Below are positions 61 through 18,508 of a DNA stretch of 21,072 bases, in pieces. Both the position numbers and the translations under genes were made by a program. Position 1 is the stretch's first letter. Each line of letters starts with the position of its first letter. Under the pieces are notes generated by a model. The model was given only the letters and a program-made list of their open reading frames with translations, did no database searches and was not told the DNA's origin. This DNA comes from a virus. Its lineage: Duplodnaviria; Heunggongvirae; Uroviricota; Caudoviricetes. The stretch lies in the IMG/VR virus record IMGVR_UViG_3300014625_000019; one strand, written 5' to 3'.

Positions 61-471
61 TTGGCAGCATTACCTGGAAGCACTCCTTATTATCCTAAAA
101 CATACAGTTCACCAAGCTCATCAGGCTCATCCAATTCAGGTACAAATTCGCCATCGTCTTCTTCATCTGTTCGTTCGCTTCGCTCAAATGACACCGATGC
201 CTCTACGACCACAAACTCTGCTGGAATGAATGGAACTACTCGTGCAAGTAGTGGGCTGGCTTCTGATACTGAAAAGCGTAAGCGTTTGATCATGCGAGTG
301 CAGTTCGCATTACTGGATAAAGGGTTTTATAACGGCAATATAGACGGAAGTATGGGGCCTGCGACACGAACTGCTATCAAAAATTACAGAGTTGCATATG
401 GGCTTCCTACTCCAGTAAGAGAAACATTAGATGCTCAGTTATTGAACTCTTTGAATATACTTGCTCGTTAA
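61..471 (+). CDS. Small peptidoglycan-binding-domain protein (Ser-rich low-complexity linker, C-terminal PG_binding_1-like motif); start uncertain
   Basis: ORF bounded by in-frame stops at 1-6 and 49-51. C-terminal LLDKGFYNGNIDGSMGPATRTAIKNYRVAYGLPT fits the PG_binding_1 pattern (L-G-Y-x-G-x-x-D-G-x-x-G-x-x-T-x-x-A-I-x-x-F-Q-x-x-x-G-L). No ATG at the 5' end: candidate starts are TTG at 61 or ATG at 226. No obvious signal peptide. Confidence 0.45.
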   Translation: MAALPGSTPYYPKTYSSPSSSGSSNSGTNSPSSSSSVRSLRSNDTDASTTTNSAGMNGTTRASSGLASDTEKRKRLIMRVQFALLDKGFYNGNIDGSMGPATRTAIKNYRVAYGLPTPVRETLDAQLLNSLNILAR

Positions 472-489
472 AATATTAGGTAAAATAGA

Positions 490-2097
490 ATGAAGATAAA
501 ACTCTCTATTTATAAAACAAAAAGGTTTAGCGATGATATTGATCAGATTTTGAATTTGGAAAGGGTCAAAAGACCTGTTGAATTCGAGATGGAGGATGCA
601 CGAGCATATCTATATGTAAAGGAGTACATGGACCCAAAACCTCCTGAATGGACCACCTTTTTTATGGGCCAAAATCCTGGCATAGAACCTGATTTCTTCG
701 GTATGAATAGTAGCACAGGAGCAGTATTAGTTATTGAAGCTAACAATTCCAGATATCTTATTCCCTTTGGAACCGGTCATCACTTAATCAATGATGGCAG
801 CATTGTCAAAGGATTTGGGCTTAAAACAACTCTTAATAGTATAGAACATAAAAAAATTCGCAGTTTAGATAAAGGCAGTCACAACGAAACGAACCTGTTA
901 ACTCGCAGTCAGAGCAGTAAAGAAGTCGATATATACAACCTAAAAATAGATTCTGAGATGGATATTCTTACAACTCTCACAGGCACTTCGACAGAAGATA
1001 TTTTAGGAAGTAAAATTACTGGCAAAGATGCTTTTGTGATCATGCCGGATATTGAATTGAAGGCTATTCCAGCACTGTTGACCAAAATAGACTCTATTTA
1101 CTTATTACCTCTTCCTGAAGAATTCGAATGGGTTAACAATATCAAGGAGGCTGATGAACAAGAAGTTGAGATATTGGATTCGCTTTTGATTGATCGGATA
1201 AAGGAAAAAGACTTCAATGATTTATGGCTTGGAGAGCCAGAAATAGTAGACTGGGAAAATCAAATAGGCTATTGCTTTGATAAGAGACAAAGATTCATTC
1301 ATGAAACCTTATCAATATACCATGTTTGTGATTATTTTGATGGTAAGAAAACTGAAGTAACTGTTGATGAACTCAAAAAAAATTACCTGCATGTTTTGAA
1401 TGCCGATTTTGAATCAATAAAAAAATGGTCTTTATATAGGTGCCTCTATGCCGAGATAAAAGAAGGTGATCAGAACTATATTCTTCGAGACTCTATATGG
1501 TATGTTGCAGATAGGAATTTTGTATCGACTATTGATGATGAAATGAAAAAAATAATTCATTATGAGGAGTCGGACAAATTCCCTGTATATTCATATAAAC
1601 GAGAGGAGGATTATAATAAAAAACTTTGCCAAGATGATAATTCCTTTACACACATGGATCAGAAATTCATTCATCATGGTGGTGGTAAAAGTAAGATTGA
1701 ATTTTGTGATCTTATCAGAGGTCAATCAGATTTTATCCATGTAAAATATTATACTGGTTCGCAAAGTATGAGCCATCTTTTTTCACAAGGATTTATAGGT
1801 TCTGAACTTTTTATAAGTGACTCTGAATTTCGAGGCAAACTTAATGAGAAACTGCCTGCTCATATAAAATTAGCCGATCATATAAATAGACCAGATGCTA
1901 AAAAATATAAACTAGTTTTCGCCATAGCTTCTAATAAAAATCTTCCCGAAGATTTACCTTTGTTTTCTAAAGTAAACTTAAAAAATTTCCACAAGAGTAT
2001 TACCAATTTTGGGTATGAGGTCAGGATCTGCAAAATTGCTGTGGACCCAGATATTTATAAAAAGAAGCTATGTAAACCACAAAAGAACAAGCTTTAA
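490..2097 (+). CDS. Hypothetical protein, 535 aa, lysine-rich, AT-rich codon usage, no recognisable catalytic motif
   Basis: Long uninterrupted ORF with an ATG start and a weak SD (AGGT) about 9 nt upstream. No convincing Walker A, PLD HKD or canonical PD-(D/E)xK signature found by eye (PDIELK at the VIMPDIELK segment is too compact to be canonical). No transmembrane segments. Confidence 0.7.
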   Translation: MKIKLSIYKTKRFSDDIDQILNLERVKRPVEFEMEDARAYLYVKEYMDPKPPEWTTFFMGQNPGIEPDFFGMNSSTGAVLVIEANNSRYLIPFGTGHHLINDGSIVKGFGLKTTLNSIEHKKIRSLDKGSHNETNLLTRSQSSKEVDIYNLKIDSEMDILTTLTGTSTEDILGSKITGKDAFVIMPDIELKAIPALLTKIDSIYLLPLPEEFEWVNNIKEADEQEVEILDSLLIDRIKEKDFNDLWLGEPEIVDWENQIGYCFDKRQRFIHETLSIYHVCDYFDGKKTEVTVDELKKNYLHVLNADFESIKKWSLYRCLYAEIKEGDQNYILRDSIWYVADRNFVSTIDDEMKKIIHYEESDKFPVYSYKREEDYNKKLCQDDNSFTHMDQKFIHHGGGKSKIEFCDLIRGQSDFIHVKYYTGSQSMSHLFSQGFIGSELFISDSEFRGKLNEKLPAHIKLADHINRPDAKKYKLVFAIASNKNLPEDLPLFSKVNLKNFHKSITNFGYEVRICKIAVDPDIYKKKLCKPQKNKL

Positions 2098-2253: not shown

Positions 2254-2466
2254 TTATGCCGCAATAGCTTTAAATTTTTGAGCAATGACATAATCACTCC
2301 ACCACTGCATGAGAATCACTCGTTCTGCCAGATATTCCGGGCGATTGTAAGCTGCAATTATTTCATCTTTCTTCGAGTGGGCAAGGGCCGCTTCTAAGAC
2401 ACCAGTCCTGAACTTACCAGATTCGTCTGTCGCCGTTCTCACAATAGATCTCATTCTGTTAACCAT
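2254..2466 (-). pseudogene. 3'-terminal remnant of a P4-type tyrosine integrase (about 70 codons, N-terminal about 340 codons missing)
   Basis: Translation MRSIVRTATDESGKFRTGVLEAALAHSKKDEIIAAYNRPEYLAERVILMQWWSDYVIAQKFKAIAA aligns almost residue-for-residue with the C-terminus of the intact integrase at 6212-7441. Nucleotide similarity decays upstream of about 2470. Confidence 0.6.
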
Positions 2467-2593
2467 AAGTTCACCTCCTTAAACCGTTCGAATGATTACG
2501 GCTTATACTGCCTACTTATGCTAATATCTAAGAGAAGCCATTATGGTTGTGTAAGTATACTTCATGGTTTATTTCGGATATATAAAACCATAC

Positions 2594-3490
2594 CTATGAC
2601 TGGCTGTTTTCAGCAAGAGTCTTATCATCTAAAGAATTTATTTTCGAAATTCTTTTTAACTCATTAAGATAATCAACCTCGTTTTCCAAGAACCAATGAA
2701 GAACTTTAGAGTTACCAAGTAATTTAATAATATATGACTGGATTATAACGAATTTCAACATATCTGAACCATACTCGGTTTGAAGCTTTTTTGTTTCTTC
2801 CGAAGTTGTTGCCATTTCCTGTTCCAGACGAAGTATGGTTTTTTTTATGTCCTTTTTATAGGGAGTGTTTTTCCCTTTATTTATTATCATCGATGCCGGT
2901 GTTGCATCCAAGATGCTCATTGCAAATTTTTTACTATAATTATCAAAATTAATCATTGTACCGACTGCTTCAATTTGACGAATTGGTTTCATTTTCCTCA
3001 AAACATCAAATGTAGCCTTAGGTATTGGTTTATCAGAAAGTTTCGCAATCACACTTGGATCTATACCGTTCATCACATTAGCTTTATCTTTTATAGCATC
3101 AATAGATATGCCCAAAGCAGCACTAAGTTTTTCAATTGAAACTTTTGCTAAGGACTTGATTATCATTCTATGTTCTTCAACTACATTTATATGATTGACT
3201 TGTTTGTTAGGAGTGAACGCATCATCTATGCTCGAAAGTATACATGGAGCTTTTTCTATGCCTAAATCTTTTAAAGCCTCAACCCTCAAATGGCCATCGA
3301 GTATCTTAATGGCATCTTTATCTTTGTCATAGAACACTATTATTGGTTCAATAATACCTAAGCTTTCAATTGAGGTAACTATTTGATGGTATTTATGACT
3401 TAGCTTTACATTTTCTAACAATTCCTTAGAGGGAATTAACTTGTTAGTTTCTAAATAAATAAAATTGTCGCCAAAACGTATCTGAATCAT
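2594..3490 (-). CDS. ParB/Srx-fold DNA-binding protein (ParB-like N-terminal domain with LDGHLRVEA box, predicted HTH), 298 aa
   Basis: Start codon overlaps the stop of the upstream gene (ATGA at 3487-3490). Motif IIVFYDKDKDAIKILDGHLRVEALKDLG resembles the ParB/Srx G-x-x-R-x-x-A box. Helix-turn-helix-like segment SIEKLSAALGISIDAIKDK. Confidence 0.6.
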   Translation of the reverse strand: MIQIRFGDNFIYLETNKLIPSKELLENVKLSHKYHQIVTSIESLGIIEPIIVFYDKDKDAIKILDGHLRVEALKDLGIEKAPCILSSIDDAFTPNKQVNHINVVEEHRMIIKSLAKVSIEKLSAALGISIDAIKDKANVMNGIDPSVIAKLSDKPIPKATFDVLRKMKPIRQIEAVGTMINFDNYSKKFAMSILDATPASMIINKGKNTPYKKDIKKTILRLEQEMATTSEETKKLQTEYGSDMLKFVIIQSYIIKLLGNSKVLHWFLENEVDYLNELKRISKINSLDDKTLAENSQS

Positions 3491-4383
3491 TTTGATGCCT
3501 CTTTGTTTATTGGATTGAGGATCTGAGATGGCTGTTCTGATAGATTCTCTTGTTCAAGTATATTTTGAAAGCTTTTATTCATCATTATGATGTTAAAAAT
3601 CTCATTTACTATCAGCAAATTAGTTTTAATAAATTTAGAGTTGTTATAAACAGATTTATGTTCAGCGATACTATTTTCATAAAGCTCAATTAACTCCTCA
3701 GCAGTCATTCTTTTTGATGGTTTGTGATAATAAAACCCGGCTGCTTTTGCACCTTTATTCCCAATTGTTCGCTGATTTAGAATGTGTTTTATCTTTATAA
3801 TGTCTCGGCTTTTTATTAATTTTTTATCATATGCTTCGGTAAGAATATCTTGTGCTTCTTCAGTTTCACATCTTGCAAATTGCACTGCGAGATACAGAGG
3901 CAAATTCCCCCGTTCGACTGCAGAGAGAAGTTTATGCTCTCCCTTATCAAGAAGCATATTTATACTGCTCACCCAGTTCGATGAATACCCAGTAATCTCA
4001 CTTATTTCGGAGTCTGAAAGTCCTCTGTTTTTCATATCTTTTATTATCTGTAATAACTCATTGGAACGTGGTCTCCTCCTTGCAATGTTTTCAACCAAAC
4101 TCATAACATAAGCATCTTCTTCTGATACATCTCTTATAATTGCAGGAATAATGGTCTCACCTAATGCAACGAGAGCCTCTATTCTCCCTTGGCCACAAAT
4201 TAAAGCATATTTGAAGTCGTCTTCATCAATCGCTCTTACGCTTATAGGCTTGCTTAATCCTCTTTTTTTTATGCTTTCCTTAATTTCTTCATGCACTACC
4301 TTATTTCTAGTGCGCGGGTTAAGAAATTTTATTTTGGCAATTTCAATTTGGATTATTGGGAATTCATTTGATTCAGGCAGCAT
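3487..4383 (-). CDS. ParB/Srx-fold DNA-binding protein (ISVRAIDEDDFKYALICGQGRIEA box, predicted HTH), 298 aa; paralogue of the downstream gene
   Basis: Start overlaps the 3' end of the recombinase gene by 11 nt. SD-like GAGGG upstream of the ATG. ParB-like box ICGQGRIEALVALG. HTH-like LSDSEISEITGYSSNWVSSI. Confidence 0.6.
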   Translation of the reverse strand: MLPESNEFPIIQIEIAKIKFLNPRTRNKVVHEEIKESIKKRGLSKPISVRAIDEDDFKYALICGQGRIEALVALGETIIPAIIRDVSEEDAYVMSLVENIARRRPRSNELLQIIKDMKNRGLSDSEISEITGYSSNWVSSINMLLDKGEHKLLSAVERGNLPLYLAVQFARCETEEAQDILTEAYDKKLIKSRDIIKIKHILNQRTIGNKGAKAAGFYYHKPSKRMTAEELIELYENSIAEHKSVYNNSKFIKTNLLIVNEIFNIIMMNKSFQNILEQENLSEQPSQILNPINKEASK

Positions 4384-5929
4384 ATAGTTCCCTCACTTTC
4401 ATTCGAGTAATAATTTGTAGAAGTTTATCCAGATTATCAAATCTATAGAGATCTAATCGAATGTTGTTTGTTTCCGTCATGCACATTTTACTATATTCGT
4501 TTTCAATCTTTGGTATGATATAAAAATCAAGTGGTGTAATATTTTGTGAATCCATTCGTATAACAATTGTTATGTCTGCTTTCTGTGAGTTATCAAACCG
4601 GACTTTCCATCTAAGTTTACCCGATTTCATATGTGTGCATTTGGTAATAAGGACGGAAATTAAAAACTCATCATTGATGTAAAGCATTGGTGCATATTTA
4701 TATTCGTCTATATAGCAGTTGCTTTTTATAATTCCCCCCTTAAAATCCTCAATTATGCCTGAGTAAAATGATCTTAGTGCTTCATTTATTTGGATATAGC
4801 TGTAATCATGTTCTGGCTTATAACCAATCAAAGTATATGCTCTTAAAAGACCACCAAATCGGGTTCTGTAAACAGAAGATGAAGGGCCTGTATCATCTTC
4901 ATCAATGATAAAGCCAGATAGTTTTCCATTAGTTTCTAATTTTTGTTTTAGCTTTTCTAAAAGCTCTTCATTAGTCAAATGTACGGATCGGAGCTGAATT
5001 ATTTCTTGAGCTTTATTATATTTTTTCTTTGAAATAATGGGTTTGTATGCCTTGTCGCATCTAACCCATTCATTTTTTGGGTTTTTTACAAGCCTACTTT
5101 TTAGTTTAGATGAGGTTTTGTTATATATGTTATTTCCAATATATTTTTCATTTGTTAAGATTTGATGTATTTTTGCACGAGTCCATAATGTTCCATTTTC
5201 TGCAGGTATATTCTGTTCGTTTAGTCTCTCAGCAATAATGAATTCTGGCATGTTATCATCTATAAAGAGATCATAGATGCTATTTACAATTTTTATCTCA
5301 TTTTTTGGTCCAGGAATTAATATTACCCTATCTGTTTGAATACTCTTTCTTTTGCGGAAGCCCAATATTTCTTTAGCTATGCCATTTTCATCTACTAAAA
5401 GACGTCTCAGCCCATAACCAGCCATTCCGCCTTGATGATAACCAAGCTTTATTAAATTTACTTGCCCTATAAATACCTTTTCTGATAAATTCCTGCTGTG
5501 ATATGCAGCACTAGATCTTTTTATGTTCAGTATAACAGAAGACTCTAAAGGGAAATCTTTAGTGGGAATAGGTTCAGAACAGTATATAAGATCTACACCG
5601 TTTCTCTCAAATAGAAAGGAATAATATGCAGCTTCATCACTATTTTGAAAACGACCAAAACGGCTCACATCATAAAATAATACAGCCTGTATATCTATTT
5701 TCTTTTGTTCTACATCACTAAGTAACTGCTGCAAAGAATGCCGGCCTATGATACTGACTCCGCTCTTACCTGCATCATCGTAGGTATAAGCGATTTCCAT
5801 ATTGTTCTTTTCAGCATAATCTTTGATATATTCGGACTGATTATGTAAAGAATATTGCTGATGGTCGGTAGACATCCTCAAGTACTGTGCGACCCTAACT
5901 TTATGATTTTTATCATTTTCTCTAGCCAT
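4373..5929 (-). CDS. Large serine recombinase (resolvase/invertase-type catalytic domain plus recombinase domain), 518 aa
   Basis: N-terminal YLRMSTDHQ motif with the catalytic serine, followed by the DDAGKSG and VSRFGR motifs of the resolvase domain. Recombinase-domain-like WTRAKIHQILTNEKYIGNNIY. SD GAGG about 8 nt upstream of the ATG. No CxxC pairs seen in the C-terminal region. Confidence 0.8.
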   Translation of the reverse strand: MARENDKNHKVRVAQYLRMSTDHQQYSLHNQSEYIKDYAEKNNMEIAYTYDDAGKSGVSIIGRHSLQQLLSDVEQKKIDIQAVLFYDVSRFGRFQNSDEAAYYSFLFERNGVDLIYCSEPIPTKDFPLESSVILNIKRSSAAYHSRNLSEKVFIGQVNLIKLGYHQGGMAGYGLRRLLVDENGIAKEILGFRKRKSIQTDRVILIPGPKNEIKIVNSIYDLFIDDNMPEFIIAERLNEQNIPAENGTLWTRAKIHQILTNEKYIGNNIYNKTSSKLKSRLVKNPKNEWVRCDKAYKPIISKKKYNKAQEIIQLRSVHLTNEELLEKLKQKLETNGKLSGFIIDEDDTGPSSSVYRTRFGGLLRAYTLIGYKPEHDYSYIQINEALRSFYSGIIEDFKGGIIKSNCYIDEYKYAPMLYINDEFLISVLITKCTHMKSGKLRWKVRFDNSQKADITIVIRMDSQNITPLDFYIIPKIENEYSKMCMTETNNIRLDLYRFDNLDKLLQIITRMKVRELYAA

Positions 5930-6211
5930 GCACGAAACCTCATGGATGATTCAATACAATGTAGAGAATAAAATTGATCAATTTTTAACCAAATTCAACT
6001 CTTTTATCATCGATTAGAGCGAATTTGGTAAATCTTCGAGGTGTATGATAATCGAGAAGAGATGTGAATTATTTAGCTGATATGATCTACAGCTTTCGTT
6101 ATGTGGCCTCAAGGTAGTCATTCGTAAATGGCTATGCTTAGTCCACATAGGTTTATAGTGTGATTATTAATTCTTTAACTAAATCAAGATAGTTAACCCA
6201 TCATGGAAGAG

Positions 6212-7441
6212 TTATGCGGCAATAATTTTGTATTTTTGAGACGAAACAAAGTCACTCCACCACTGCATGAGAATCACCCGTTCTGTGAGATACTCTGCAC
6301 GATTGTAGGCTGCAATTATTTCATCTTTCTTCGAGTGGGCAAGGGCGGCTTCTAAGACATCAGTCCTAAATTTGCCAGACTCCTCCGCAGCCGTTCTGGC
6401 GATTGATCGCATACCGTGAGCTACAAGCTCACCTCCGAAACCCATACGGATTATGGCCGCATTAGCTGTTTGTTCATGCATGTGATTGAGTGGAGCTTTG
6501 ATACTGGGGAAAACCCACTCTCTATGCCCACTGATGGCTTTCATTAAATCCAAAACTCGCAAAGCTTCTTTGCTCAGTGGAACTTTGTGAGGCTTCTTCA
6601 TTTTCATAAACTCCGCTGGGATGTTCCACATGCCAGTTTCAATATCAATATCTGACCATCTTGTGCGAACAGCCTCACCAGGACGAACCCAAGTTAGCAA
6701 TTGCCATTCAATCAGCAATCGTGTCTCCATACGGACTGATGCGTTGTTTAACACTGTAAGGAAGCGGGGGAGTTCGGTTGGGGGCAGGGCTGGCATGTTC
6801 TGTTTCTTCGGCTTACTAAATCTCTGGGCAAGATTGTCAGCCGGATTGAATTCTATGAGTTCTTCTGTTGCTGCATAGCGGAAAATTTCATTCAGGCGGG
6901 ATATGATGCGGCGAAGTGTTTCAAGGACACCTCGTTTTTCTATGGGGTCTAAATGCTGTTTAAGCATTTTAGGCCGAATCTCTTTAATGGGAGTATCACC
7001 CAATGTGGGAAAGATATTTCTCTCCAGGCTTCGCCAGATGTCTTCTGCATGGTCTTGTGAGATACCTGAGGTCTTTACCTTCTCGTCCAACCATTTCCTT
7101 GCTACGGCTTGAAGAGTGTGTTCAATAGCACTCTTTAATGCCTTCGCCTTATTATTGTTATGGACTTGGGGATCAACACCATTTGCCAGTAAGGAGAGAT
7201 TTTCATCTCGTAAGGCTCTGGCTTTTGCAAGGGTAAGGTGAGGATAGGTCCCAAGGCTCATTTTTGTTCTTTTCTTGCTTACTGGTACTGCATACCTGAA
7301 ATACCAATTTTTCTTGCCACCTTTCGCCAAAGGAGCGATTCGTAGAATCAAACCATCCCCGTCGAACAAGTTGATTTCTTTATCGGCTGGCTTGGTGCTT
7401 TTGATTTCAGTGTCAGTGAGTTTCTTAGCGATTTTTGCCAT
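6212..7441 (-). CDS. int: P4-type tyrosine integrase (site-specific recombinase, tRNA/tmRNA-targeting family), 409 aa
   Basis: N-terminal arm-binding-like segment (LFDGDGLILRIAPLAKGGKKNWYFRY). C-terminal catalytic region with the R...H-x-x-R...Y arrangement (HGMRSIARTAA, AAYNRAEY). Architecture parallels CP4-57 IntA as I recall it. Lies directly next to the ssrA 3'-end fragment. Confidence 0.85.
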   Translation of the reverse strand: MAKIAKKLTDTEIKSTKPADKEINLFDGDGLILRIAPLAKGGKKNWYFRYAVPVSKKRTKMSLGTYPHLTLAKARALRDENLSLLANGVDPQVHNNNKAKALKSAIEHTLQAVARKWLDEKVKTSGISQDHAEDIWRSLERNIFPTLGDTPIKEIRPKMLKQHLDPIEKRGVLETLRRIISRLNEIFRYAATEELIEFNPADNLAQRFSKPKKQNMPALPPTELPRFLTVLNNASVRMETRLLIEWQLLTWVRPGEAVRTRWSDIDIETGMWNIPAEFMKMKKPHKVPLSKEALRVLDLMKAISGHREWVFPSIKAPLNHMHEQTANAAIIRMGFGGELVAHGMRSIARTAAEESGKFRTDVLEAALAHSKKDEIIAAYNRAEYLTERVILMQWWSDFVSSQKYKIIAA

Positions 7442-7537
7442 TTGGGACCCTCGGTTTTTGGACCCATCTTAGAGGGTCCCATTCAGGGTGCCATAACTTA
7501 TAGTTCTCAGCAATTCGCACTGGACGACAATAGACGT

Positions 7538-7570
7538 AAAAAAGCCCGCAGAGCTTGTGCTGTGCGGGCT
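7538..7570 (-). terminator. Rho-independent terminator (GC-rich hairpin plus T-run on the minus strand) downstream of the ssrA fragment
   Basis: Minus strand reads AAGCCCGCACAGCACAAGCTCTGCGGGCTTTTTT: a 7-bp GC-rich stem (7544-7550 with 7563-7569) followed by six T. Confidence 0.5.
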
Positions 7571-7605
7571 TAGTAGACTTCATTGTACTTCAAACAACTA
7601 AAAAG

Positions 7606-7637
7606 TGGTGGAGCTGGCGGGAGTTGAACCCGTGTCC
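7606..7637 (-). other. ssrA: 3'-terminal fragment of ssrA (tmRNA): T-arm, acceptor 3' strand and CCA; putative att core / junction repeat
   Basis: Reverse complement GGACACGGGTTCAACTCCCGCCAGCTCCACCA matches my recollection of the E. coli tmRNA 3' end (GGACGCGGGTTCAACTCCCGCCAGCTCCACCA) at 31 of 32 positions. Sequence further 5' in RNA sense (window coordinates above 7637) does not continue as tmRNA, so this is a fragment, not a gene. Confidence 0.55.
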
Positions 7638-8064
7638 ATAGTTATGTAATTCATTGAATTTAAATAGCCAAATATTGTTGATTTTACAAGCGGCTCTTTT
7701 GCGGAACTTTTTCTGTCCTGTTACTGTCTTACTATTTATTTTAAAATAGTTTCATTTGGAATTAATGGTTTGTGGTTGCAGTTTCGGAGATAGATAGCAT
7801 TTTTTGCTAAAAAATATTTTTATAAAAAAATGTGTGTAAAAATGATGTTATGCACAGATTTATGCACAGAGGCTTTGTGATAAACCAGATTGTTTTGGAT
7901 AAGTTTGTTTTTTTGTGATTTGTCAACAATATTATTGACTCTTGTTACTAAAGTGAGTGTTTTCTAAGGTGGTCAGAAGTTGTCCCTTCATGTAATCTTA
8001 TTAGCCATAAAGAACAAAAAATAATTCAACATCATTACCAACTATTTGTAAGATAAGGTTTTTA

Positions 8065-8880
8065 ATGTTGCAGCCAGCAAAAAAAGCATCAGTTATTAGC
8101 GCGCGGCTAACTAAATACCTCAAAGATGGAGTGAGGATTGATGACTTTAGCTTTAGAAGGATGTTACGTGAGATTGAAGCACTTAGAGATCCTGTCTCTG
8201 AGGACTATCTTTTAGCGTTGGTCTATGGTGCACATGGCCAAGTGAATGAGGCGATAGGCTTCTTTGAGCGTTCCTTGCAGGTATGCCATAATGAGGTTGT
8301 TGCAAAGAATTTTCTTGTTTTCTTGTCAGATTACGGTACGTTGAAGAAAAGCTTTGAAACAAGCATTAAGCTTGCTGAAAGCTTCATATCCCCGTTTATT
8401 TATCTTCAAGCTTATGAAAACTCCCTCTTTATGGGGAAGATGGCGTTGGCGGAGAAGTATTTCCAGTCATACTCTAAATTGTTCGGAGATAAGGAGCCTG
8501 AAAAAATGGACAACAATTTTGATGAAGTTGTTTCCCAGGTCGAATCCTTTAAGCAACGTGCCGATCTTTCTGGTTTAGAATATGAACTTATTTTCAATAA
8601 TGTAGCCAATGTCATGGATTCTCAGAAGGTTCATCTTTCGGGAATGCGTTTTTATAATATTTCGGAAGAGAAAGTGAATGCGATTGTATTCATGACAAAG
8701 TCTTCTGATGCTGAACAAATCGCTGATATGAATATTGAGCTTGCTTTTTCAATGGCTGAGCACGATTGTTTAGTCGGTAAAGATTTTGCTGTTTGGTTTG
8801 AATGTAAAGACACACATATTGAGCAGAATGCTATCTCCGAATTAGGTCTGATTACCCGGAGGGTTGCACATGCCGGTTAA
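8065..8880 (+). CDS. Hypothetical protein, 271 aa (first gene of a two-gene moron operon)
   Basis: ATG start preceded by an AAGG SD. Long AT-rich leader upstream (7640-8064). Overlaps the downstream gene by 11 nt. No recognisable motif. Confidence 0.6.
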   Translation: MLQPAKKASVISARLTKYLKDGVRIDDFSFRRMLREIEALRDPVSEDYLLALVYGAHGQVNEAIGFFERSLQVCHNEVVAKNFLVFLSDYGTLKKSFETSIKLAESFISPFIYLQAYENSLFMGKMALAEKYFQSYSKLFGDKEPEKMDNNFDEVVSQVESFKQRADLSGLEYELIFNNVANVMDSQKVHLSGMRFYNISEEKVNAIVFMTKSSDAEQIADMNIELAFSMAEHDCLVGKDFAVWFECKDTHIEQNAISELGLITRRVAHAG

Positions 8881-9253
8881 TAGTCAAGATTTTCTCGGTT
8901 TTGCAAAAGACTGTCATCAACGTAATGACGAAATCGGCTATCGAAATGCTATAGCAAGATCCTACTATGGCGCTTACCATCATGTCTTGCCTTGTATGGT
9001 AAACGGGCCGAAAGACAGTCATCAGGGGCTAATCAATTATTTGCAGGGCGATGCTTCAAGAGGAAGTGAAGTATATGAAGCTAGATATCTAAAAGGGATT
9101 AGTTTTATCCTGAGTCAACTTAAAGCTCAGAGGATTGTTGCAGACTATCGACTTGATCAATCGGTCACTTCTAAACAGTCTGAAGTTGCGATTCTAACAA
9201 CTGAGAGGCTCTTTGCTAAGTGTACGGAAATGCTTAAATCGAGAGCCTCCTAA
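8870..9253 (+). CDS. Hypothetical small protein, 127 aa, with an R-x6-H motif (possible HEPN-like fold)
   Basis: ATG at 8870 preceded by GGAGGG (8857-8862) at 7-nt spacing; the track ORF begins at an in-frame TTG at 8864. Motif AIARSYYGAYHH matches the minimal HEPN R-x(4-6)-H signature, but it is N-proximal, so the assignment is tentative. Confidence 0.55.
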   Translation: MPVNSQDFLGFAKDCHQRNDEIGYRNAIARSYYGAYHHVLPCMVNGPKDSHQGLINYLQGDASRGSEVYEARYLKGISFILSQLKAQRIVADYRLDQSVTSKQSEVAILTTERLFAKCTEMLKSRAS

Positions 9254-9258
9254 TTGAT

Positions 9259-9283
9259 AAAGCCACTTAAGTGGCTTTTTTTG
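9259..9283 (+). terminator. Rho-independent terminator hairpin (AAAGCCAC-TTAA-GTGGCTTT plus T-run), possibly bidirectional
   Basis: Perfect 8-bp inverted repeat with a 4-nt loop followed by TTTTT on the plus strand and an A-run on the other side. The int stop codon (9267-9269) lies in the loop. Confidence 0.5.
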
Positions 9284-10439
9284 TGATATTGCTGGTCGTA
9301 TTACCGTCATATTCCTTTAAATATGAACCATAATGACGAAATAACATTTCCGGCCCTTTATGCCCCATTTGAGCTGCAAGCCAAAACAGGTTTGCTCCCC
9401 GGCTGATATGGCGGGTGGCGAATGTATGCCTAGTTTGATATGGATTTCTGTAACGAATACCTGCTTTTCGCAATGTTGGCACCCATGCTTTTTTCCTGAT
9501 TGCATCAGCACTTGCCCAAGGCTTATTGGTCTTTGGATCTTCAAAGACAGTAGTATCCTTCATGAATGTAAATGGCTTCTGATTTATCAGCGCCAACATT
9601 GCCTCTTCTGTCAGTTCAACTTTCCGAGTACCTGCTTTTGTCTTTGTCCCTTTGATAACACCGACAACACTTGCGCTCTGGACATGGGCAGTTTTTCCAA
9701 CAAAGTCGATATCACGCCATCGAAGGGCACATAATTCAGAACTACGCAGGCCTGTATGTATAGCGAACCGGAACAGATTTTCCCATTGTTTGTTTCCGGC
9801 TGCTGCTAGTAATGCATCAACTTCTGCTGGTGATAGCGGATCAACTACGTAGCTGCTTTCTGCTTCTGACTTATCACTTTGGTAGCGCGAAGCTGTTACT
9901 AACGATACGGGGTTAATTTGAAGTACCCCATCGGTCACGGCTTCATCAAGTGCTGACCGCAGGAAAGATAACTGGTTGCGAATTGTTTTTAAGGTCGTTT
10001 TCTGATTTTGAATCCACGCTTTCAGGGTTGCTGGTGTTAATTCACTTGCAGGGCAAATGTGAAGTGAGGCTAACGCACTACGGCATTTTTTATAGCCACC
10101 AATCGTAGAGGGTGAAAGTTTTCTTGTTTCGCAGATTTCAAGATATTCGTCCAGGTACATCTTTACCGTTTTGCCTGCAGCAGCATTACCAAAAATTTTC
10201 AAACGAGCAGAACGGGGAAAATATTCTGCATAAATGAATGTTCCCCTTTCGATCTTATTATGGATTTCGCCGAGTGTACGCTCGGCGTATTTAATGTTCT
10301 TTGGTGTTACTTCCAGATTGGAAAGCGGCTCACGACATCTAACTCCTTTGTAGGTGAAAGTTATATTGATCGTTTCTCCCTGGCGGTGTTTCCTGATTGT
10401 TACGCCGCGCGGTAGTTTGAGCAGTTTTGTCTGGCCCAT
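9267..10439 (-). CDS. int: Lambda-type tyrosine integrase, 390 aa
   Basis: Catalytic signature GLRSSELCALRW (Arg), RHTFATRH (His-x-x-Arg), LFRHYGSY (Tyr). N-terminal arm-binding-type region. 5' end overlaps xis, as in lambda. Confidence 0.85.
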   Translation of the reverse strand: MGQTKLLKLPRGVTIRKHRQGETINITFTYKGVRCREPLSNLEVTPKNIKYAERTLGEIHNKIERGTFIYAEYFPRSARLKIFGNAAAGKTVKMYLDEYLEICETRKLSPSTIGGYKKCRSALASLHICPASELTPATLKAWIQNQKTTLKTIRNQLSFLRSALDEAVTDGVLQINPVSLVTASRYQSDKSEAESSYVVDPLSPAEVDALLAAAGNKQWENLFRFAIHTGLRSSELCALRWRDIDFVGKTAHVQSASVVGVIKGTKTKAGTRKVELTEEAMLALINQKPFTFMKDTTVFEDPKTNKPWASADAIRKKAWVPTLRKAGIRYRNPYQTRHTFATRHISRGANLFWLAAQMGHKGPEMLFRHYGSYLKEYDGNTTSNITKKAT

Positions 10440-10647: not shown

Positions 10648-11514
10648 TTAACGAATAGTGTCGTTACTTTGAAGTACAGCAAATGCCATTAATACTTCTA
10701 AAGTATATCTTCTATAAAATTTAACAAAACCAACATAGAAAACATAGACGAAGAAAAAGCTAAGCATTATTGAAAGTAAACTATAAAGATAATCACTATG
10801 AGTACATAATCGATAAATAAAGGTTGGAACTGATACCCAAAATGAAATTATAAAGATTAAACATATGTTTCTGCAAAAACCATATAATGCAACATAGTTT
10901 TGAATTTTTGTTTGATGTTGTTTTGAAAACTCATAAACATAATGATATGCCAATCTGAAGAGATCATCATCAAGTCCGTTTTTATCTTGTAATAATTGGC
11001 GATTTGTTATGAACTTTTTCTCATAACCTTCTTTGATCATTAACCATGTTGTATTAGCTAAATGAAATGGTAGAGATTGAGAATAACATAGTTTTTGTGT
11101 TATAAAATCCCATAGTATTATTGGGCATAATACGCATTTGATTATGCGATTCTTTATTTTTGTTTTTTTATCAGCGCTTCTCTCATCGCATGATGGGCTA
11201 CAAATGCTTTCTGAGGTATCTATCAATTTTTTAAATAGATATTTGGAAGGATATCCTAATTCTTTATTCATGTATTTTTCGATAAAAAATGCTGACGTGA
11301 TAGAAATAAAATGTCCAGCTATATAAGATATAATAACTATTGAAGCGTAGTTCAAAATGCCAAAGATTTGACTTTGACCTCTGAGCAATTCACTTAAGTC
11401 AATAACAATATCTAGATCGAATGTCAAACCACAGAAATACATTAATAGGATAAAAAAACCACCTGGTATTAAATATCCAAGAAAGTCATAGAATGAGAAT
11501 GGATTTTGATTCAT
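10648..11514 (-). CDS. Predicted integral membrane protein (about 4 TM segments, Cys-containing central soluble region), unknown function; AT-rich moron
   Basis: Hydrophobic stretches FLGYLIPGGFFILLMYFCGLTF, IFGILNYASIVIISYIAGHFISITSAFFI, ICLIFIISFWVSVPTFIY, LLSIMLSFFFVYVFYVGFV. ATG at 11514 with GGAG 7 nt upstream; the track ORF starts at TTG 11538. Stop abuts the xis start. Confidence 0.6.
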   Translation of the reverse strand: MNQNPFSFYDFLGYLIPGGFFILLMYFCGLTFDLDIVIDLSELLRGQSQIFGILNYASIVIISYIAGHFISITSAFFIEKYMNKELGYPSKYLFKKLIDTSESICSPSCDERSADKKTKIKNRIIKCVLCPIILWDFITQKLCYSQSLPFHLANTTWLMIKEGYEKKFITNRQLLQDKNGLDDDLFRLAYHYVYEFSKQHQTKIQNYVALYGFCRNICLIFIISFWVSVPTFIYRLCTHSDYLYSLLSIMLSFFFVYVFYVGFVKFYRRYTLEVLMAFAVLQSNDTIR

Positions 11515-11622
11515 TGTTGCTCTCCAATAATTTTTCAATTTGTAATATAACCTATATCTATATGTTAATAAATTACTTATATGTTCTTTTATGGCAGAGT
11601 TTGAATTCGTACGTGCTGATTT

Positions 11623-15840: not shown

Positions 15841-16410
15841 ATGAGGCTAATCGTGGGTAAGCATCACTGGAAAATAGAAAAACAGCCTGAGTGGTACGTG
15901 AAAGCTGTCAGAAAAACTATCGCGGCGTTGCCGGGTGGTTACGCTGAAGCGGCTGATTGGCTCGATGTAACAGAAAACGCTTTATTCAACCGCCTTCGTG
16001 CAGATGGCGATCAGATTTTCCCGCTGGGATGGGCAATGGTTTTACAGCGTGCTGGTGGCACTCACTTCATTGCTGATGCTGTGGCGCAGTCTGCAAATGG
16101 CGTCTTTGTGTCTCTTCCTGACGTCGAGGATGTGGACAACGCCGATATTAACCAGCGTCTGCTGGAAGTCATTGAACAGATCGGCAGTTATTCAAAACAG
16201 ATTCGTTCAGCAATCGAAGACGGTGTAGTGGAACCGCATGAGAAGACAGCAATTAACGACGAGCTGTATCTCTCAATTTCGAAGCTGCAGGAGCATGCAG
16301 CACTTGTCTACAAAATTTTTTGCATTTCAGAAAGTAATGACGCCCGCGAGTGTGCAGCTCCGGGCGTCGTGGCGTCGATTGCTTCTGGTTGTGGAGAAAC
16401 TAACGCATGA
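15841..16410 (+). CDS. Putative phage regulatory protein (CII/CP76-like), 189 aa; C-terminus may be altered by a deletion junction
   Basis: Position immediately downstream of cro and weak resemblance to the 186-type CII family (recollection only). Its 3' end abuts a portal fragment. Confidence 0.4.
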   Translation: MRLIVGKHHWKIEKQPEWYVKAVRKTIAALPGGYAEAADWLDVTENALFNRLRADGDQIFPLGWAMVLQRAGGTHFIADAVAQSANGVFVSLPDVEDVDNADINQRLLEVIEQIGSYSKQIRSAIEDGVVEPHEKTAINDELYLSISKLQEHAALVYKIFCISESNDARECAAPGVVASIASGCGETNA

Positions 16411-17263
16411 ACAGTTTAACAACACACTACCGAAGCTTAACAGTAGCTGGGAGCCGGTCTATCAGGTCACATTCCCGGATGGCTCCACGGATGTACTGAG
16501 CCAGGAGGATATCTGGCATGTGCGCACGCTGACGCTGGACGGACTGGTGGGGCTGAATCCCATCGCCTATGCCCGCGAGGCAATATCGCTGGCGGCAGCG
16601 ACCGAAGAGCACGGGGCCAGACTGTTCAGCAATGGCGCGGTGACGTCGGGTGTGTTGCGTACAGAGCAGACGCTGTCAGATCAGGCTTACGAGCGCCTGA
16701 AGAAAGATTTTGAGGAGCGTCACACCGGGCTTGGCAATGCTCACCGCCCGATGATCCTTGAGATGGGGCTGGACTGGAAGTCGATGGCGCTGAACGCCGA
16801 GGACAGCCAGTTCCTGGAAACCCGCAAGTTTCAACTTGAAGAAATCTGTCGTCTGTTCCGGGTACCGTTGCACATGGTGCAGAACACCGATCGCGCCACC
16901 TTCAACAATATCGAAGAACTGGGGCTCGGATTTATCAACTATTCACTGGTGCCGTATCTGACCCGCATCGAACAGCGGATCAACACCGGACTGGTACGAA
17001 AAAGTAAGCAGGGCGTTTATTACGCCAAATTTAACGCCGGGGCGTTACTGCGCGGGGATATGAAGTCCCGTTTTGAAGCCTACGCCACCGGGATTAACTG
17101 GGGAATTTACTCTCCCAATGACTGCCGCGACCTGGAAGATATGAATCCGCGTCCCGGTGGTGATGTCTATCTCACACCGATGAACATGACCACGAAACCC
17201 TCCGATGGCAGTAAAGCCGGTAAGCAGAAGGATAACGCCAATGCAGACGAAACAACGTCTTGA
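16400..17263 (+). pseudogene. HK97-family phage portal protein, 5'-truncated fragment (C-terminal about 285 codons only)
   Basis: Portal-like segment (GLGNAHRPMILEMGLDWKSMALNAEDSQFLETRKFQLEEICRLFRVPLHMV). The upstream part of the track ORF is an alternate frame of the CII-like gene, so roughly the first 120-130 residues of a normal portal are absent. Confidence 0.55.
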
Positions 17264-17588
17264 TGTACCGCTGAGTCTGAAATCTGTCAGTGACTCCGGT
17301 GAGTTTGAAGGGTATGGCTCCGTCTTTGGTGTAAAGGACAGCCACGATGATGTGGTGATGTCCGGGGCATTTGCTGCTTCCCTGCGGGCGTGGAGTGACA
17401 GAAAAGCGTTACCTGCGCTGCTCTGGCAGCACCGCATGGATGAACCCATCGGTGTTTACACCGAAATGAAGGAAGACGATGTCGGGCTTTACGTCAGGGG
17501 ACGGTTGCTTATTGATGATGATCCCCTCGCAAAACGCGCACATGCACACATGAAGGCCGGTTCGTTACGGCGACGGCGCAGACGCTGA
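17241..17588 (+). pseudogene. HK97-family prohead protease, 3'-truncated fragment
   Basis: ATG at 17241 with AAGGA SD. N-terminal protease-like motifs (FEGYGSVFGVKDSHDDVVMSGAFAASL; LLWQHRMDEPIGVY; EDDVGLYVRGRL). The frame ends abruptly in RRRRRR* where the conserved GLSIG-type region is expected. Confidence 0.5.
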
Positions 17589-18508
17589 TGTCATCCTGTT
17601 CTGCACTGGATGACTGCATCAGTGACAGTTTCAGTAGTTTCAGTATCGATGGCGTGGCAGATTTTGTGCAGAACGACGTCGTCGGTAATGCCAGCACAAT
17701 GCTTGGGTATGTTTCTGATGCGATGAAAGTGGTGGATTCTGCCGTATCGGATGCCGCCAGGCTGTTGCAGGGGGATATCTCGGTACTTCTGCCGCCGCCA
17801 TCGTCAGGCAAAAATTTCGTTGAGCAGGTGCAGAAAATGTGGCGTACCGGGAAACGCCTTTATGGTAACGCCAGCGACCTGGTCACCATGATCAAAACGC
17901 TTTCCGGTGTCAGCCTCGGCAGCGATCTGCAACCGCGCGGCGTCTGGAAAACGGACAGTAAAACCACCGCCACGGCTACGCAGCAGCGTAACGTGGTTGC
18001 CAGCACCCTTCGTACGACCGCAATCAGCGAAGCGGCGTATGCCGTCACCCGATTGCCTGCGCCAACAACTTCCGCGGTGATGCAGAATGCCGCAGTGGGG
18101 CAGGCAACAACACCTGCGCAGAGCACTGGCTGGCCTTCCGTCACGCATCCGGCACTGAACAATGCACCGGCGGTGAAAAACACAGTTGACCTGCCGACGT
18201 GGGAAGAACTGACTGACATTCGCGACACACTGAATACGGCAATTGATAAGGAGTTGTCCCGTACAACCAGTGATGCGCTGTTTCTGGCGCTGCGCCGGGT
18301 GAAAGCAGATCTGAATGCGGATATCAACACGCGCCTTGAACAGTCTGCACGGATCATTCAGCGCACGCCGGATGAGGTTTTACCCGCGCTGGTGCTGGCG
18401 GCGACCTGGTTTGATAACGCGGCGCGTGACGCGGACATTATCCGGCGTAATGCCATTACGCATCCCGGCTTTGTGCCGGTGATCCCTCTGAAGGTGCCAG
18501 TGCAATGA
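17588..18508 (+). CDS. Mu-like tail protein (gpN/DNA-circulation-like, C-terminal portion); probably 5'-truncated
   Basis: Sits immediately upstream of and coupled (ATGA overlap at 18505-18508) to a Mu gpP-like gene. The N-terminus lacks the conserved DNA-circulation N-domain. Family assignment is by gene order and recollection, low confidence. Confidence 0.4.
   Translation: MSSCSALDDCISDSFSSFSIDGVADFVQNDVVGNASTMLGYVSDAMKVVDSAVSDAARLLQGDISVLLPPPSSGKNFVEQVQKMWRTGKRLYGNASDLVTMIKTLSGVSLGSDLQPRGVWKTDSKTTATATQQRNVVASTLRTTAISEAAYAVTRLPAPTTSAVMQNAAVGQATTPAQSTGWPSVTHPALNNAPAVKNTVDLPTWEELTDIRDTLNTAIDKELSRTTSDALFLALRRVKADLNADINTRLEQSARIIQRTPDEVLPALVLAATWFDNAARDADIIRRNAITHPGFVPVIPLKVPVQ

What the first reader, a model, noticed from the sequence alone, without database searches (positions are those of the whole stretch)
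4373..5929. Serine recombinase with a long C-terminal region but no CxxC zinc-ribbon cysteines
The protein has the size of a large serine recombinase and a recombinase-domain-like segment (WTRAKIHQILTNEKYIGNNIY), but its five cysteines are all isolated, with no CxxC pairs. Integrase-type large serine recombinases usually carry a Cys-rich zinc ribbon that helps select att sites. A divergent C-terminal domain could mean a different DNA-recognition mode or a non-integrase role such as inversion or resolution within the triplet.
Basis: partly seen in the sequence, partly recalled or inferred. Interest (0 to 1): 0.4.

Follow-up and report, generated by a model that had tools for sequence, protein, structure and literature searches.

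The report
Zinc-free serine recombinase with ParB partners
This E. coli island gene encodes a large-serine-recombinase relative in which the usual zinc-ribbon/coiled-coil DNA-selection domain is replaced by a homing-endonuclease-type repeat plus a restriction-endonuclease-like fold; it always travels with two ParB-like genes as a widespread module whose function nobody has tested.

Summary
The gene lies on the minus strand (4373-5929) and encodes 518 aa with five isolated Cys and no CxxC.

Pfam finds Resolvase plus Recombinase domains and no zinc ribbon. A confident AlphaFold model (pLDDT 90) matches the SPbeta, Bxb1 and phiC31 integrases only over the first ~325 residues.

The C-terminal 200 residues consist of:
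- a diverged HNH_repeat helical module;

This is a family trait, not a local oddity. At least 1348 50%-identity clusters match at E<=1e-30, and CxxC is absent or sporadic among the 60 relatives inspected.

The gene is translationally coupled to two ParB/RepB-like genes. The trio is kept in 72 of 80 loci from diverse bacteria, often with a small divergent regulator gene.

Its flanks are hypervariable and rich in defence and toxin-antitoxin genes. It is almost absent from phages and rare on plasmids. In E. coli (660/5426 genomes, including BL21) it sits next to a P4-type integrase at ssrA and is under purifying selection.

In Agrobacterium plasmids the 3.9-kb cassette is bounded by a recurring 19-bp direct-repeat motif, which suggests cassette-type site-specific mobility.

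The function is untested. My best guess is a self-contained site-specific recombination module with ParB-like accessory proteins. It is a new variant of a known kind.

The parts
4373..5929 (-). Recombinase gene (518 aa): large-serine-recombinase relative without zinc ribbon or coiled-coil
   Evidence: ORF and translation. Pfam Resolvase plus Recombinase only. Foldseek matches SPbeta, Bxb1 and phiC31 integrases over ~325 columns. dN/dS 0.12 against the WL164 allele.
5474..5890 (-). Catalytic (resolvase-type) domain, residues 14-152, with presumed nucleophile Ser20 in YLRMSTDHQ
   Evidence: PF00239, E 8.4e-22. S20 is nearly invariant, and R63, D87, R90 and R93 are invariant in 69 relatives. The alignment to TP901-1 and 3guv catalytic domains places Ser20 on their active-site serine motif.
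4985..5422 (-). Recombinase domain (about residues 170-315) following the long alpha-E helix (127-161)
   Evidence: PF07508 at residues 210-312. AF2 secondary structure. Sequence match to SPbeta integrase residues 188-307.
4829..4972 (-). Diverged HNH_repeat (homing-endonuclease-associated repeat) helical module, residues ~320-367, with the invariant RFG..L..AY..IGY motif
   Evidence: Weak PF18780 hit (E 0.02, 15.7 bits, profile positions 2-47 of 54). F358 is invariant and G359, A364, Y365 and G369 are each kept in at least 61 of 69 relatives. The same position scores 77 bits in relative P0132, which carries several tandem copies.
4376..4801 (-). C-terminal restriction-endonuclease-like (PD-(D/E)xK fold) domain, residues ~377-518
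3487..4383 (-). ParB/RepB-like gene 1 (298 aa); its start overlaps the recombinase stop
   Evidence: ParB_N (E 7.9e-14) plus RepB. TIGR00180 above cut-off. Matches Spo0J, ParB, Noc and KorB structures over the N-domain and HTH. dN/dS 0.06.
2594..3490 (-). ParB/RepB-like gene 2 (298 aa); its start overlaps the ParB1 stop (ATGA)
   Evidence: RepB (E 8e-23) plus ParB_N. Matches Noc. dN/dS 0.06.
2546..2593 (-). Short conserved tail of the trio block with a hairpin (ATGGTTT...AAACCAT); homology between different E. coli contexts ends at 2546
   Evidence: Sequence. Window-to-WL164 homology spans 2546-7638.
6212..7441 (-). P4-type tyrosine integrase (409 aa) directly upstream; context, not shown to be part of the module
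   Evidence: Pfam Arm-DNA-bind_3, Phage_int_M and Phage_integrase; NCBIfam PRK09692. Adjacent to ssrA in E. coli genomes. Mosaic alleles.
7606..7632 (+). ssrA 3'-end fragment (att site of the tyrosine-integrase island); ssrA itself is not in the window
   Evidence: no tmRNA found by ARAGORN or Rfam.
2254..2562 (-). Remnant of a second P4-type integrase gene (last ~102 codons), between the trio and the DUF6119/Hxs cargo
   Evidence: 83% aa identity to the C-terminus of the intact integrase. 292-nt direct repeat at 76%. Annotated as a partial integrase in CP098223.

Best explanation
The gene encodes an active-looking site-specific serine recombinase of a distinct, widespread subfamily of large serine recombinases. 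The catalytic domain, alpha-E helix and recombinase domain are conventional. The zinc-ribbon/coiled-coil unit, which in phage integrases reads the outer att half-sites and controls directionality, is replaced by a homing-endonuclease-type HNH_repeat helical module plus a PD-(D/E)xK-fold domain that is probably non-catalytic. I infer that these two parts bind DNA and/or mediate subunit contacts. The recombinase works as part of a fixed three-gene operon with two different ParB/RepB-like DNA-binding proteins, in most lineages with a small divergent HTH regulator as well. I infer that the ParB-like pair acts as accessory or architectural and regulatory factors, doing the site selection, synapsis control or directionality that the missing coiled-coil provides in integrases. 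The module behaves as a compact cassette of about 3.6-3.9 kb. It moves horizontally and lodges in variable, defence-rich regions of genomic islands and large plasmids. In E. coli it is fixed as the integrase-proximal cargo of ssrA islands. Shown: domain architecture, family size, operon conservation, genomic context and purifying selection. Inferred: catalytic activity, DNA binding by the new C-terminal modules, the role of the ParB-like proteins, and cassette integration/excision at short direct repeats (seen only in Agrobacterium plasmids).
For: Architecture:
- Pfam finds Resolvase plus Recombinase only.
- Catalytic residues are conserved: S20, D87, R90, R93.
- The AF2 model has pLDDT 89.8, and Foldseek hits to SPbeta, Bxb1 and phiC31 integrases are restricted to ~325 columns.
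- HNH_repeat identity is validated in relatives (77 bits) that carry 3-6 tandem copies.

Family: 15151, 4873 and 1348 cluster representatives at E<=1e-3, 1e-10 and 1e-30. Most of the top 150 align end to end at 33-47% identity.

Operon:
- Overlapping stop/start codons.
- REC-ParB1-ParB2 in the same order in 72 of 80 GTDB loci; 7 more have ParB1 only, and four of those end at a contig end.
- A divergent small ORF in 41 of 80, annotated as a DeoR-family regulator in Sphingobium.

Selection: dN/dS 0.12, 0.06 and 0.06.

Not a phage integrase or plasmid par system: 1 of 50,697 phage records, 68 of 72,556 plasmids, and 0 plasmid places in E. coli.

Cassette behaviour:
- A 96.9%-identical 3.9-kb unit sits in unrelated flanks in pAtC58 and pAt1D1460.
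- Both junctions carry CCTKGARNGGRRTYGAACC in direct orientation.
- The same motif occurs at cassette-free junctions in pAtCFBP5507a and pAtS7/73, with a more degenerate copy in pAt15955.
- Zero-mismatch copies occur only at 5 junction positions in 1.36 Mb of fetched loci.
Against: - No recombination substrate was found for the E. coli copy. There are no flanking repeats above chance, no presence/absence polymorphism with clean ends, and one copy per genome, always beside the same integrase.
- In other clades no junction repeats exceeded shuffled controls.
- The Agrobacterium repeat is only 15/20 identical between the two ends. It is significant only through its position and recurrence.
- The same motif also flanks a HipBA module that has no recombinase. 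It could therefore be an att relic of a different (tyrosine) integrase, with the trio as mere cargo.
- In Sphingobium plasmids the module is part of a conserved conjugative backbone rather than an insertion.
- Nothing shows that the ParB-like proteins touch the recombinase.
- All structures are predictions.
Confidence: 0.45

Rival explanations
1. The trio is itself a defence or anti-mobile-element system. The ParB-like proteins would load on or recognise invading DNA (plasmid or phage), and the recombinase, with its nuclease-fold domain, would cut, topologically trap or rearrange it.
For: Guilt by association.
- In E. coli the trio occupies the cargo slot of P4-integrase mini-islands, whose other slots hold AbiL-like RloB/AAA_15, DUF6119 plus Hxs, and type I R-M.
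- In pAtC58 it lies between AbiE and Fic.
- Neighbours in 80 loci include Mokosh, Hma, DISARM DrmD, Shedu, BREX, pAgo, Zorya, Gabija, DRT and many methyltransferases.
- The C-terminal domain has a nuclease fold.
Against: - There is no hit to any PADLOC model.
- The expected catalytic Lys of the nuclease fold is Y/F, and no conserved Glu lies on the first helix.
- Mobile-element integration modules also sit next to defence cargo, so the association does not discriminate.
- No literature report was found.
Confidence: 0.22
2. It is a maintenance module of its host element. The recombinase would resolve multimers of the excised island or plasmid at a nearby res-like site, and the ParB-like proteins would act as partition, silencing or KorB-like regulatory proteins.
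For: - Recombinase and par-type genes are classic neighbours on plasmids (established knowledge: P1 Cre/lox with ParAB, RK2 par region).
- The module is part of the conserved backbone of Sphingobium conjugative plasmids, near ssb, and of Rhizobiales megaplasmids.
- ParB1 aligns with Spo0J, ParB, Noc and KorB over the N-domain and HTH.
Against: - No ParA partner was seen in the operon in any locus examined.
- Only 68 of 72,556 plasmids carry it, and none of 660 E. coli copies is plasmid-borne.
- In BL21 the whole island is just integrase plus trio, with nothing to maintain.
- No repeated parS-like palindrome was seen.
Confidence: 0.15
3. It is an ordinary phage or ICE serine integrase whose zinc ribbon was simply missed, responsible for integrating the surrounding island.
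For: Its size (518 aa) and its Resolvase plus Recombinase domains resemble those of integrases. It lies in a genomic island at ssrA.
Against: - No Zn_ribbon_recom hit and no CxxC in the protein; CxxC is absent or sporadic among the relatives checked.
- Confident models show a different C-terminal fold and no coiled-coil.
- It is virtually absent from phages.
- The island's ssrA att site and a complete P4-type tyrosine integrase explain integration.
- The trio recurs in unrelated contexts without island ends.
Confidence: 0.03
4. In E. coli the module is a decaying, non-functional passenger.
For: No substrate sites were found. The small regulator gene present in other lineages is missing. No consensus promoter lies upstream. 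IS insertions or deletions occur in some strains.
Against: The genes are intact in 619 of 660 carrier genomes. dN/dS is 0.06-0.12 across ~7% nucleotide divergence. Catalytic residues are retained.
Confidence: 0.07

Closest known systems
Large serine recombinases / serine integrases (SPbeta SprA, Bxb1, phiC31, TP901-1, A118)
   Same: N-terminal catalytic domain with a Ser nucleophile, a long alpha-E helix and the recombinase domain. Foldseek E 8e-16 to SPbeta integrase, with hits also to Bxb1 and phiC31. Sequence hits to TP901-1 and SPbeta.
   Different: No zinc-ribbon domain and no coiled-coil motif; HNH_repeat plus a PD-(D/E)xK fold stand in their place. Not phage-borne. Obligatorily linked to two ParB-like genes. 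No attP/attB or RDF identified.
CcrB/CcrC cassette chromosome recombinases (SCCmec)
   Same: Best NCBIfam partial hits (CcrB E 3.8e-18 over residues 8-309). These are also recombinases of non-phage chromosomal cassettes.
   Different: The score of 65 bits is far below the 900-bit cut-off. The match covers only the N-terminal 60%, and the C-terminus is unrelated.
Dehalococcoides ssrA-island integration module (DsiB serine recombinase with a ParB-domain protein; PMC3146451)
   Same: A CcrB-like ~540-aa serine recombinase is co-encoded with a ParB-domain protein in a conserved integration module of islands at ssrA, which also holds a tRNA-like element.
   Different: That module has six genes (a second small recombinase, RecF-like, Mom-like and others) and one 210-aa ParB-domain protein. 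Homology of its recombinase C-terminus to this family was not tested here. In E. coli the ssrA location is explained by the tyrosine integrase.
I-Ssp6803I and Hjc-type PD-(D/E)xK proteins
   Different: Only 12-14% identity and no sequence-level match. The Lys position is Y/F and there is no conserved helix-1 Glu. The domain is fused to a recombinase rather than free-standing.
ParABS partition systems and KorB/Noc-type ParB regulators
   Same: ParB N-terminal domain plus HTH in both partner proteins.
   Different: No ParA and no identified parS. There are two paralogous ParB-like genes with RepB-type C-termini, and the module is chromosomal in E. coli.

Membership tests
Large serine recombinase (serine integrase) | Resolvase-type catalytic domain with Ser nucleophile and conserved Arg/Asp | tested here: met
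   PF00239, E 8.4e-22. S20 nearly invariant; D87, R90 and R93 invariant in 69 relatives. Aligned to the TP901-1 and 3guv active-site motif.
Large serine recombinase (serine integrase) | Alpha-E helix followed by the recombinase domain (PF07508) | tested here: met
   PF07508, E 5.8e-22. Helix 127-161 in the model. Foldseek to SPbeta, Bxb1 and phiC31 over ~325 columns.
Large serine recombinase (serine integrase) | Zinc-ribbon domain with four coordinating Cys (PF13408) | tested here: not met
   No Pfam hit. No CxxC in the protein, and none in 56 of the 60 relatives inspected. The predicted fold is different.
Large serine recombinase (serine integrase) | Long coiled-coil motif inserted in the zinc-ribbon domain | tested here: not met
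   The longest C-terminal helix is 26 residues (377-402), packed against the alpha/beta domain.
Large serine recombinase (serine integrase) | attP x attB integration with a 2-bp core; RDF-controlled excision | not testable with these tools
   No sites were found in E. coli. There are only candidate flanking repeats in Agrobacterium plasmids.
Small serine resolvase/invertase | ~180-200 aa; HTH domain directly after alpha-E | tested here: not met
   518 aa with a recombinase domain after alpha-E.
HNH_repeat (PF18780) | Profile match above the gathering score | tested here: inconclusive
   The window protein scores 15.7 bits against a cut-off of 26. The homologous segment in relatives P0132, P0176 and P0146 scores 77, 61 and 34 bits.
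PD-(D/E)xK nuclease | Restriction-endonuclease-like alpha/beta fold | tested here: met
PD-(D/E)xK nuclease | Catalytic D...(D/E)xK plus helix-1 Glu | tested here: inconclusive
   P/A451-D452 and D468 are conserved (87-88%), but position 470 is Y/F/L and no Glu is conserved in helix 377-402. The mapping is by spacing, not by superposition.
ParABS partition system | ParA ATPase, ParB and a parS centromere together | tested here: not met
   ParB-like domains are present. No ParA ORF is present in or next to the operon in the window or in the annotated loci. No parS was identified.
Known anti-phage defence systems (PADLOC v2) | Match of the component proteins to a system model | tested here: not met
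   No hit for the recombinase; only weak methyltransferase-model hits through the ParB_N domain.

The most novel reading that the evidence does not exclude
The recombinase-ParB-ParB module would be a previously unrecognised kind of system. One version is a serine-recombinase-driven cassette platform that inserts or shuffles defence and toxin-antitoxin cassettes at short tRNA-like sites, making it a serine-recombinase analogue of an integron. The other is a defence system against plasmids or other mobile DNA, in which ParB-type CTP-dependent clamps mark the target DNA and a zinc-free serine recombinase with a nuclease-fold domain executes it.
Probability: 0.2. Interest if true: 0.8.

Novelty: new variant of a known kind. 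Interest (0 to 1): 0.55.

Why it matters
Serine integrases are prized genome-engineering tools. How they choose sites and direction is attributed to the zinc-ribbon/coiled-coil unit. A large natural family that keeps the catalytic and recombinase domains would show an alternative solution to site selection and directionality. This family swaps that unit for modular HNH_repeat units (1 to about 6 copies) and a nuclease-fold domain, and it always co-occurs with two ParB-like proteins. It could also link ParB-type proteins to site-specific recombination. The module sits beside many defence systems and is present in E. coli BL21, so it can be tested directly with standard genetics.

Tried and rejected
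1. Trio as an element targeting the integrase gene. The 292-nt direct repeat (2230-2521 versus 6188-6479) and the integrase remnant suggested an element inserted into the 3' end of the integrase gene with a surrogate 3' end. Rejected for four reasons:
   - The remnant is absent in the commoner WL164/BL21 context.
   - Integrase alleles are mosaic, with a breakpoint near nt 400 and not at codon 308.
   - A third context shows integrase fragments of different lengths on both sides of the trio.
   - Together these fit tandem accretion of ssrA mini-islands with decay of the inner integrases.
2. Flanking repeats around the E. coli trio: none above shuffled controls.
3. Junction repeats in other clades: none above shuffled controls. 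The Agrobacterium motif is absent elsewhere.
4. Circular small contigs: no terminal overlaps.
5. IS1-deleted strain MLI105 as an 'empty site': uninformative.
6. Sphingobium plasmids: the same backbone on both sides, so no boundary information.
7. Promoter/terminator scan: not above chance.
8. Rfam: nothing in the window or in the conserved block.
9. Profile search of the C-terminus against PDB sequences: only noise.
10. The afdb50 library was unavailable. BFVD hits were weak and unannotated.
11. Literature searches for this trio, TIGR04141/DUF6119, or zinc-free large serine recombinases found nothing specific.
12. The look-up of encoding contigs on P0124 returned only a 2.3-kb contig.
Full report
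**Observation**

The ORF at 4373-5929 is on the minus strand; the plus strand is full of stops. It encodes 518 aa. Cys residues are at 117, 291, 405, 431 and 483, with no CxxC or similar pair. Pfam finds Resolvase (residues 14-152, E 8e-22) and Recombinase (210-312, E 6e-22), and nothing else above threshold. NCBIfam gives only partial, sub-threshold hits; CcrB is the best, at 65 bits against a cut-off of 900.

**What the protein is**

A search of 1.84 billion cluster representatives returned 15151, 4873 and 1348 proteins at E<=1e-3, 1e-10 and 1e-30. Most of the best 150 are 490-560 aa and align from about residue 10 to about 510 at 33-47% identity. The C-terminal third is therefore conserved in a large family.

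Fifty-six of the 60 relatives printed have no CxxC, and the other four have one each at unrelated positions.

In a 69-sequence alignment the catalytic residues are invariant or nearly so: S20 in RMST, and D87, R90 and R93. C-terminal positions F358, G359, W441, D452, R458, D468, P473 and R496 are also invariant or kept in at least 60 of the 69 sequences.

AlphaFold2 on this alignment gave mean pLDDT 89.8. Foldseek against the PDB put the SPbeta integrase (E 8e-16), Bxb1 and phiC31 on top, but only over ~325 columns, which is the catalytic plus recombinase domains.

A separate model of residues 316-518 (pLDDT 92.1) shows:
- four short helices;
- one 26-residue helix;
- a beta-rich domain with a terminal helix.

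It contains no zinc knuckle and no long coiled-coil.

The short helices are a diverged HNH_repeat (PF18780). The score is only 15.7 bits here. The homologous segment scores 77, 61 and 34 bits in relatives P0132, P0176 and P0146, whose C-termini consist of 3-6 tandem copies of the same ~60-aa unit.

By spacing, P/A451-D452 and D468 could be the PD and (D/E) positions. The expected Lys (position 470) is Y/F/L, and no Glu is conserved on the first helix. I infer a non-catalytic DNA-binding or oligomerisation role, but this was not checked by superposition. A profile of the C-terminus finds nothing in PDB sequences.

**The operon**

The recombinase stop overlaps the start of a 298-aa ParB_N+RepB protein (3487-4383). 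That gene's stop overlaps the start of a second 298-aa ParB_N+RepB protein (2594-3490). The first aligns with Spo0J, ParB, Noc and KorB over the N-domain and HTH; the second aligns more weakly with Noc.

In 80 loci from GTDB species genomes, the order REC-ParB1-ParB2 is kept in 72. These span alpha-, beta- and gamma-proteobacteria, Acidobacteriota, a Clostridia MAG and a Bdellovibrio-like MAG. Seven more show the first ParB gene only, four of them cut by contig ends, and one shows neither.

Forty-one loci also have a ~128-aa ORF transcribed divergently ~120 nt upstream. It has no Pfam family but is annotated as a DeoR-family regulator in Sphingobium plasmids. The E. coli version lacks it.

Between the window and the WL164 allele (7% nucleotide divergence), dN/dS is 0.12 for REC (0.23 for its C-terminal third), 0.06 for ParB1 and 0.06 for ParB2.

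**Context in E. coli**

The 3.8-kb region occurs once per genome in 660 of 5426 complete E. coli genomes, always chromosomal and always beside an integrase.

In CP098223 the order is ssrA, P4-type integrase, trio, integrase remnant, TIGR04141/DUF6119, HxsABCD, and then a relaxase further on. In WL164 a type I R-M system follows the trio. In BL21 the island is just integrase plus trio plus IS1.

A further common context has three consecutive units:
- a full integrase with an AbiL-like RloB/AAA_15 pair;
- a 5'-truncated integrase with the trio;
- the short integrase remnant with DUF6119/Hxs.

The window carries the ssrA 3'-end att fragment at 7606-7632 but not ssrA itself.

Integrase alleles are mosaic. 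The 3' two-thirds co-segregates with the trio, while the first ~400 nt matches trio-less alleles.

My early idea was that the trio is an element inserted into the integrase 3' end. These data do not support it. Tandem accretion of mini-islands at ssrA, with decay of the inner integrases, fits better. No repeats above chance flank the E. coli trio.

**Context elsewhere**

The family is almost absent from phages: 1 of 50,697 records, an unverified 7.4-kb virome contig. It is rare on plasmids: 68 of 72,556, mostly Rhizobiales megaplasmids including pAtC58, plus Sphingobium conjugative plasmids.

Neighbouring genes are hypervariable. Pfam found 90 families among 126 downstream ORFs and 105 among 150 upstream ORFs. 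They include many bona fide defence components: Mokosh, Hma, DISARM DrmD, Shedu, BREX, pAgo, Zorya, Gabija, DRT, AbiE and methyltransferases. The trio proteins themselves match no PADLOC model.

**Evidence for cassette behaviour**

In pAtC58 the small ORF plus the trio form a 3.9-kb unit. The same unit recurs at 96.9% identity in pAt1D1460 with unrelated flanks.

Both junctions in both plasmids carry the motif CCTKGARNGGRRTYGAACC in direct orientation. Three other plasmids share one flank but lack the cassette:
- pAtCFBP5507a carries the motif at the same junction.
- pAtS7/73 carries it with one mismatch.
- pAt15955 carries a more degenerate copy there.

In pAtS7/73 a second copy (two mismatches) lies on the far side of a HipBA module. 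Zero-mismatch copies occur only at five junction positions in 1.36 Mb of fetched loci.

Comparing the two insertions places the exchange near the GA of CCTTGA. This gives attP ...CACCTTGA|AGGGAGTTGAACCG... and attB ...TCGCCTTGA|GCGGAATCGAACC... (inference).

There are three caveats:
- The two ends are only 15/20 identical, which is not exceptional without the positional argument.
- The motif resembles a tRNA T-arm/acceptor end, so it could be an att relic of another integrase.
- No equivalent repeats were found in other clades.

**Mechanism**

I commit to a site-specific recombination module. The recombinase supplies catalysis. The HNH_repeat and nuclease-fold domains replace the zinc ribbon in DNA recognition. 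The two ParB-like proteins supply the architectural or regulatory control that the coiled-coil and RDF provide in integrases. The cassette moves between variable regions of islands and plasmids. My confidence in this is 0.45.

The rivals are:
- a defence or anti-mobile-DNA system (0.22);
- a resolution and maintenance module of the host element (0.15);
- a decaying passenger in E. coli (0.07);
- a conventional integrase (0.03).

**Comparison and novelty**

The protein passes the catalytic-domain and recombinase-domain tests for large serine recombinases. It fails the zinc-ribbon and coiled-coil tests. It is best described as a new architectural variant of that kind, not a canonical serine integrase.

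The nearest described system in spirit is the Dehalococcoides ssrA-island integration module, which pairs a CcrB-like recombinase with a ParB-domain protein and a tRNA-like element (PMC3146451). Its composition differs, and homology of the C-termini was not tested.

Literature searches found no description of this family or trio.

Noticed in passing
L022:4690-4940, L034:7425-7680, L012:11270-11440, L049:5255-5440 and others (alignment A6); not present in the window: Alpha-proteobacterial versions of the cassette carry a ~105-nt GC-rich block right after parB2 whose columns are mostly invariant across three orders. It has three predicted hairpins, 7 of 25 pairs show compensatory changes, and it ends in ...CCCACCA. 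It has no Rfam match. It could be a structured RNA, a ParB loading site or an att site.
   Followed up: partly
L083:6496 and 10378; L088:5004 and 8886; L089:7897; L091:1611 and 3503; a more degenerate copy in L090 just upstream of ~3501: A 19-bp tRNA-T-arm-like motif (CCTKGARNGGRRTYGAACC) marks junctions between small modules (AbiE, the recombinase cassette, Fic, HipBA) on Agrobacterium pAt plasmids, always in the same orientation. This looks like a cassette array.
   Followed up: partly
proteins P0132, P0176, P0146, P0150, P0160 (relatives, not in the window): A sister group of the family ends in 3-6 tandem HNH_repeat units instead of one repeat plus the nuclease-fold domain. P0122 and P0123 (1057 aa) are tandem fusions of two recombinases.
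   Followed up: partly
window 490-2097 (+) and 61-471 (+): A TIGR04141/DUF6119 'sporadically distributed' protein (E 1.7e-156) lies directly after the 3' part of an HxsA His-Xaa-Ser repeat gene. In CP098223 the full hxsDBCA operon precedes it. The function of this pairing is unknown.
   Followed up: partly
window 2254-2562 (-) versus 6212-6520 (-): A remnant of a second P4-type integrase (last ~102 codons, 83% aa identity over the last 66) lies in direct repeat with the intact gene's 3' end. Related genomes have a longer 5'-truncated integrase on the other side of the trio, which points to stacked mini-islands at ssrA.
   Followed up: yes
window 6212-7441 (-): The integrase is mosaic. Its first ~400 nt are 91-96% identical to trio-less ssrA integrases, and the rest is mostly 93-99% identical to the BL21-type integrase. 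This implies recombination inside the integrase gene.
   Followed up: yes
window 7606-7632: A 27-nt ssrA 3'-end fragment is present without the tmRNA gene, followed by unrelated DNA and a second integrase. The island here is separated from ssrA by another integrated element.
   Followed up: partly
window 8065-8880 (+) and 8864-9253 (+): Two overlapping genes of unknown function lie between the att fragment and the second integrase (9267-10439). One has a weak TPR hit and the other a weak HEPN-type PADLOC hit. They could be a small toxin/defence pair.
   Followed up: no
window 10648-11538 (-): A low-GC (31%) gene encodes a 296-aa multi-pass membrane protein with a weak PADLOC hit to Csx27 (E 1.4e-5). 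It sits inside a prophage-like region next to yfdR/yfdQ homologues.
   Followed up: no
window ~16000-21072: GC content rises from ~45% to ~58%, with a run of same-strand ORFs that match phage tail, capsid and DNA-circularisation genes in E. coli genomes. A separate prophage adjoins the low-GC islands.
   Followed up: no
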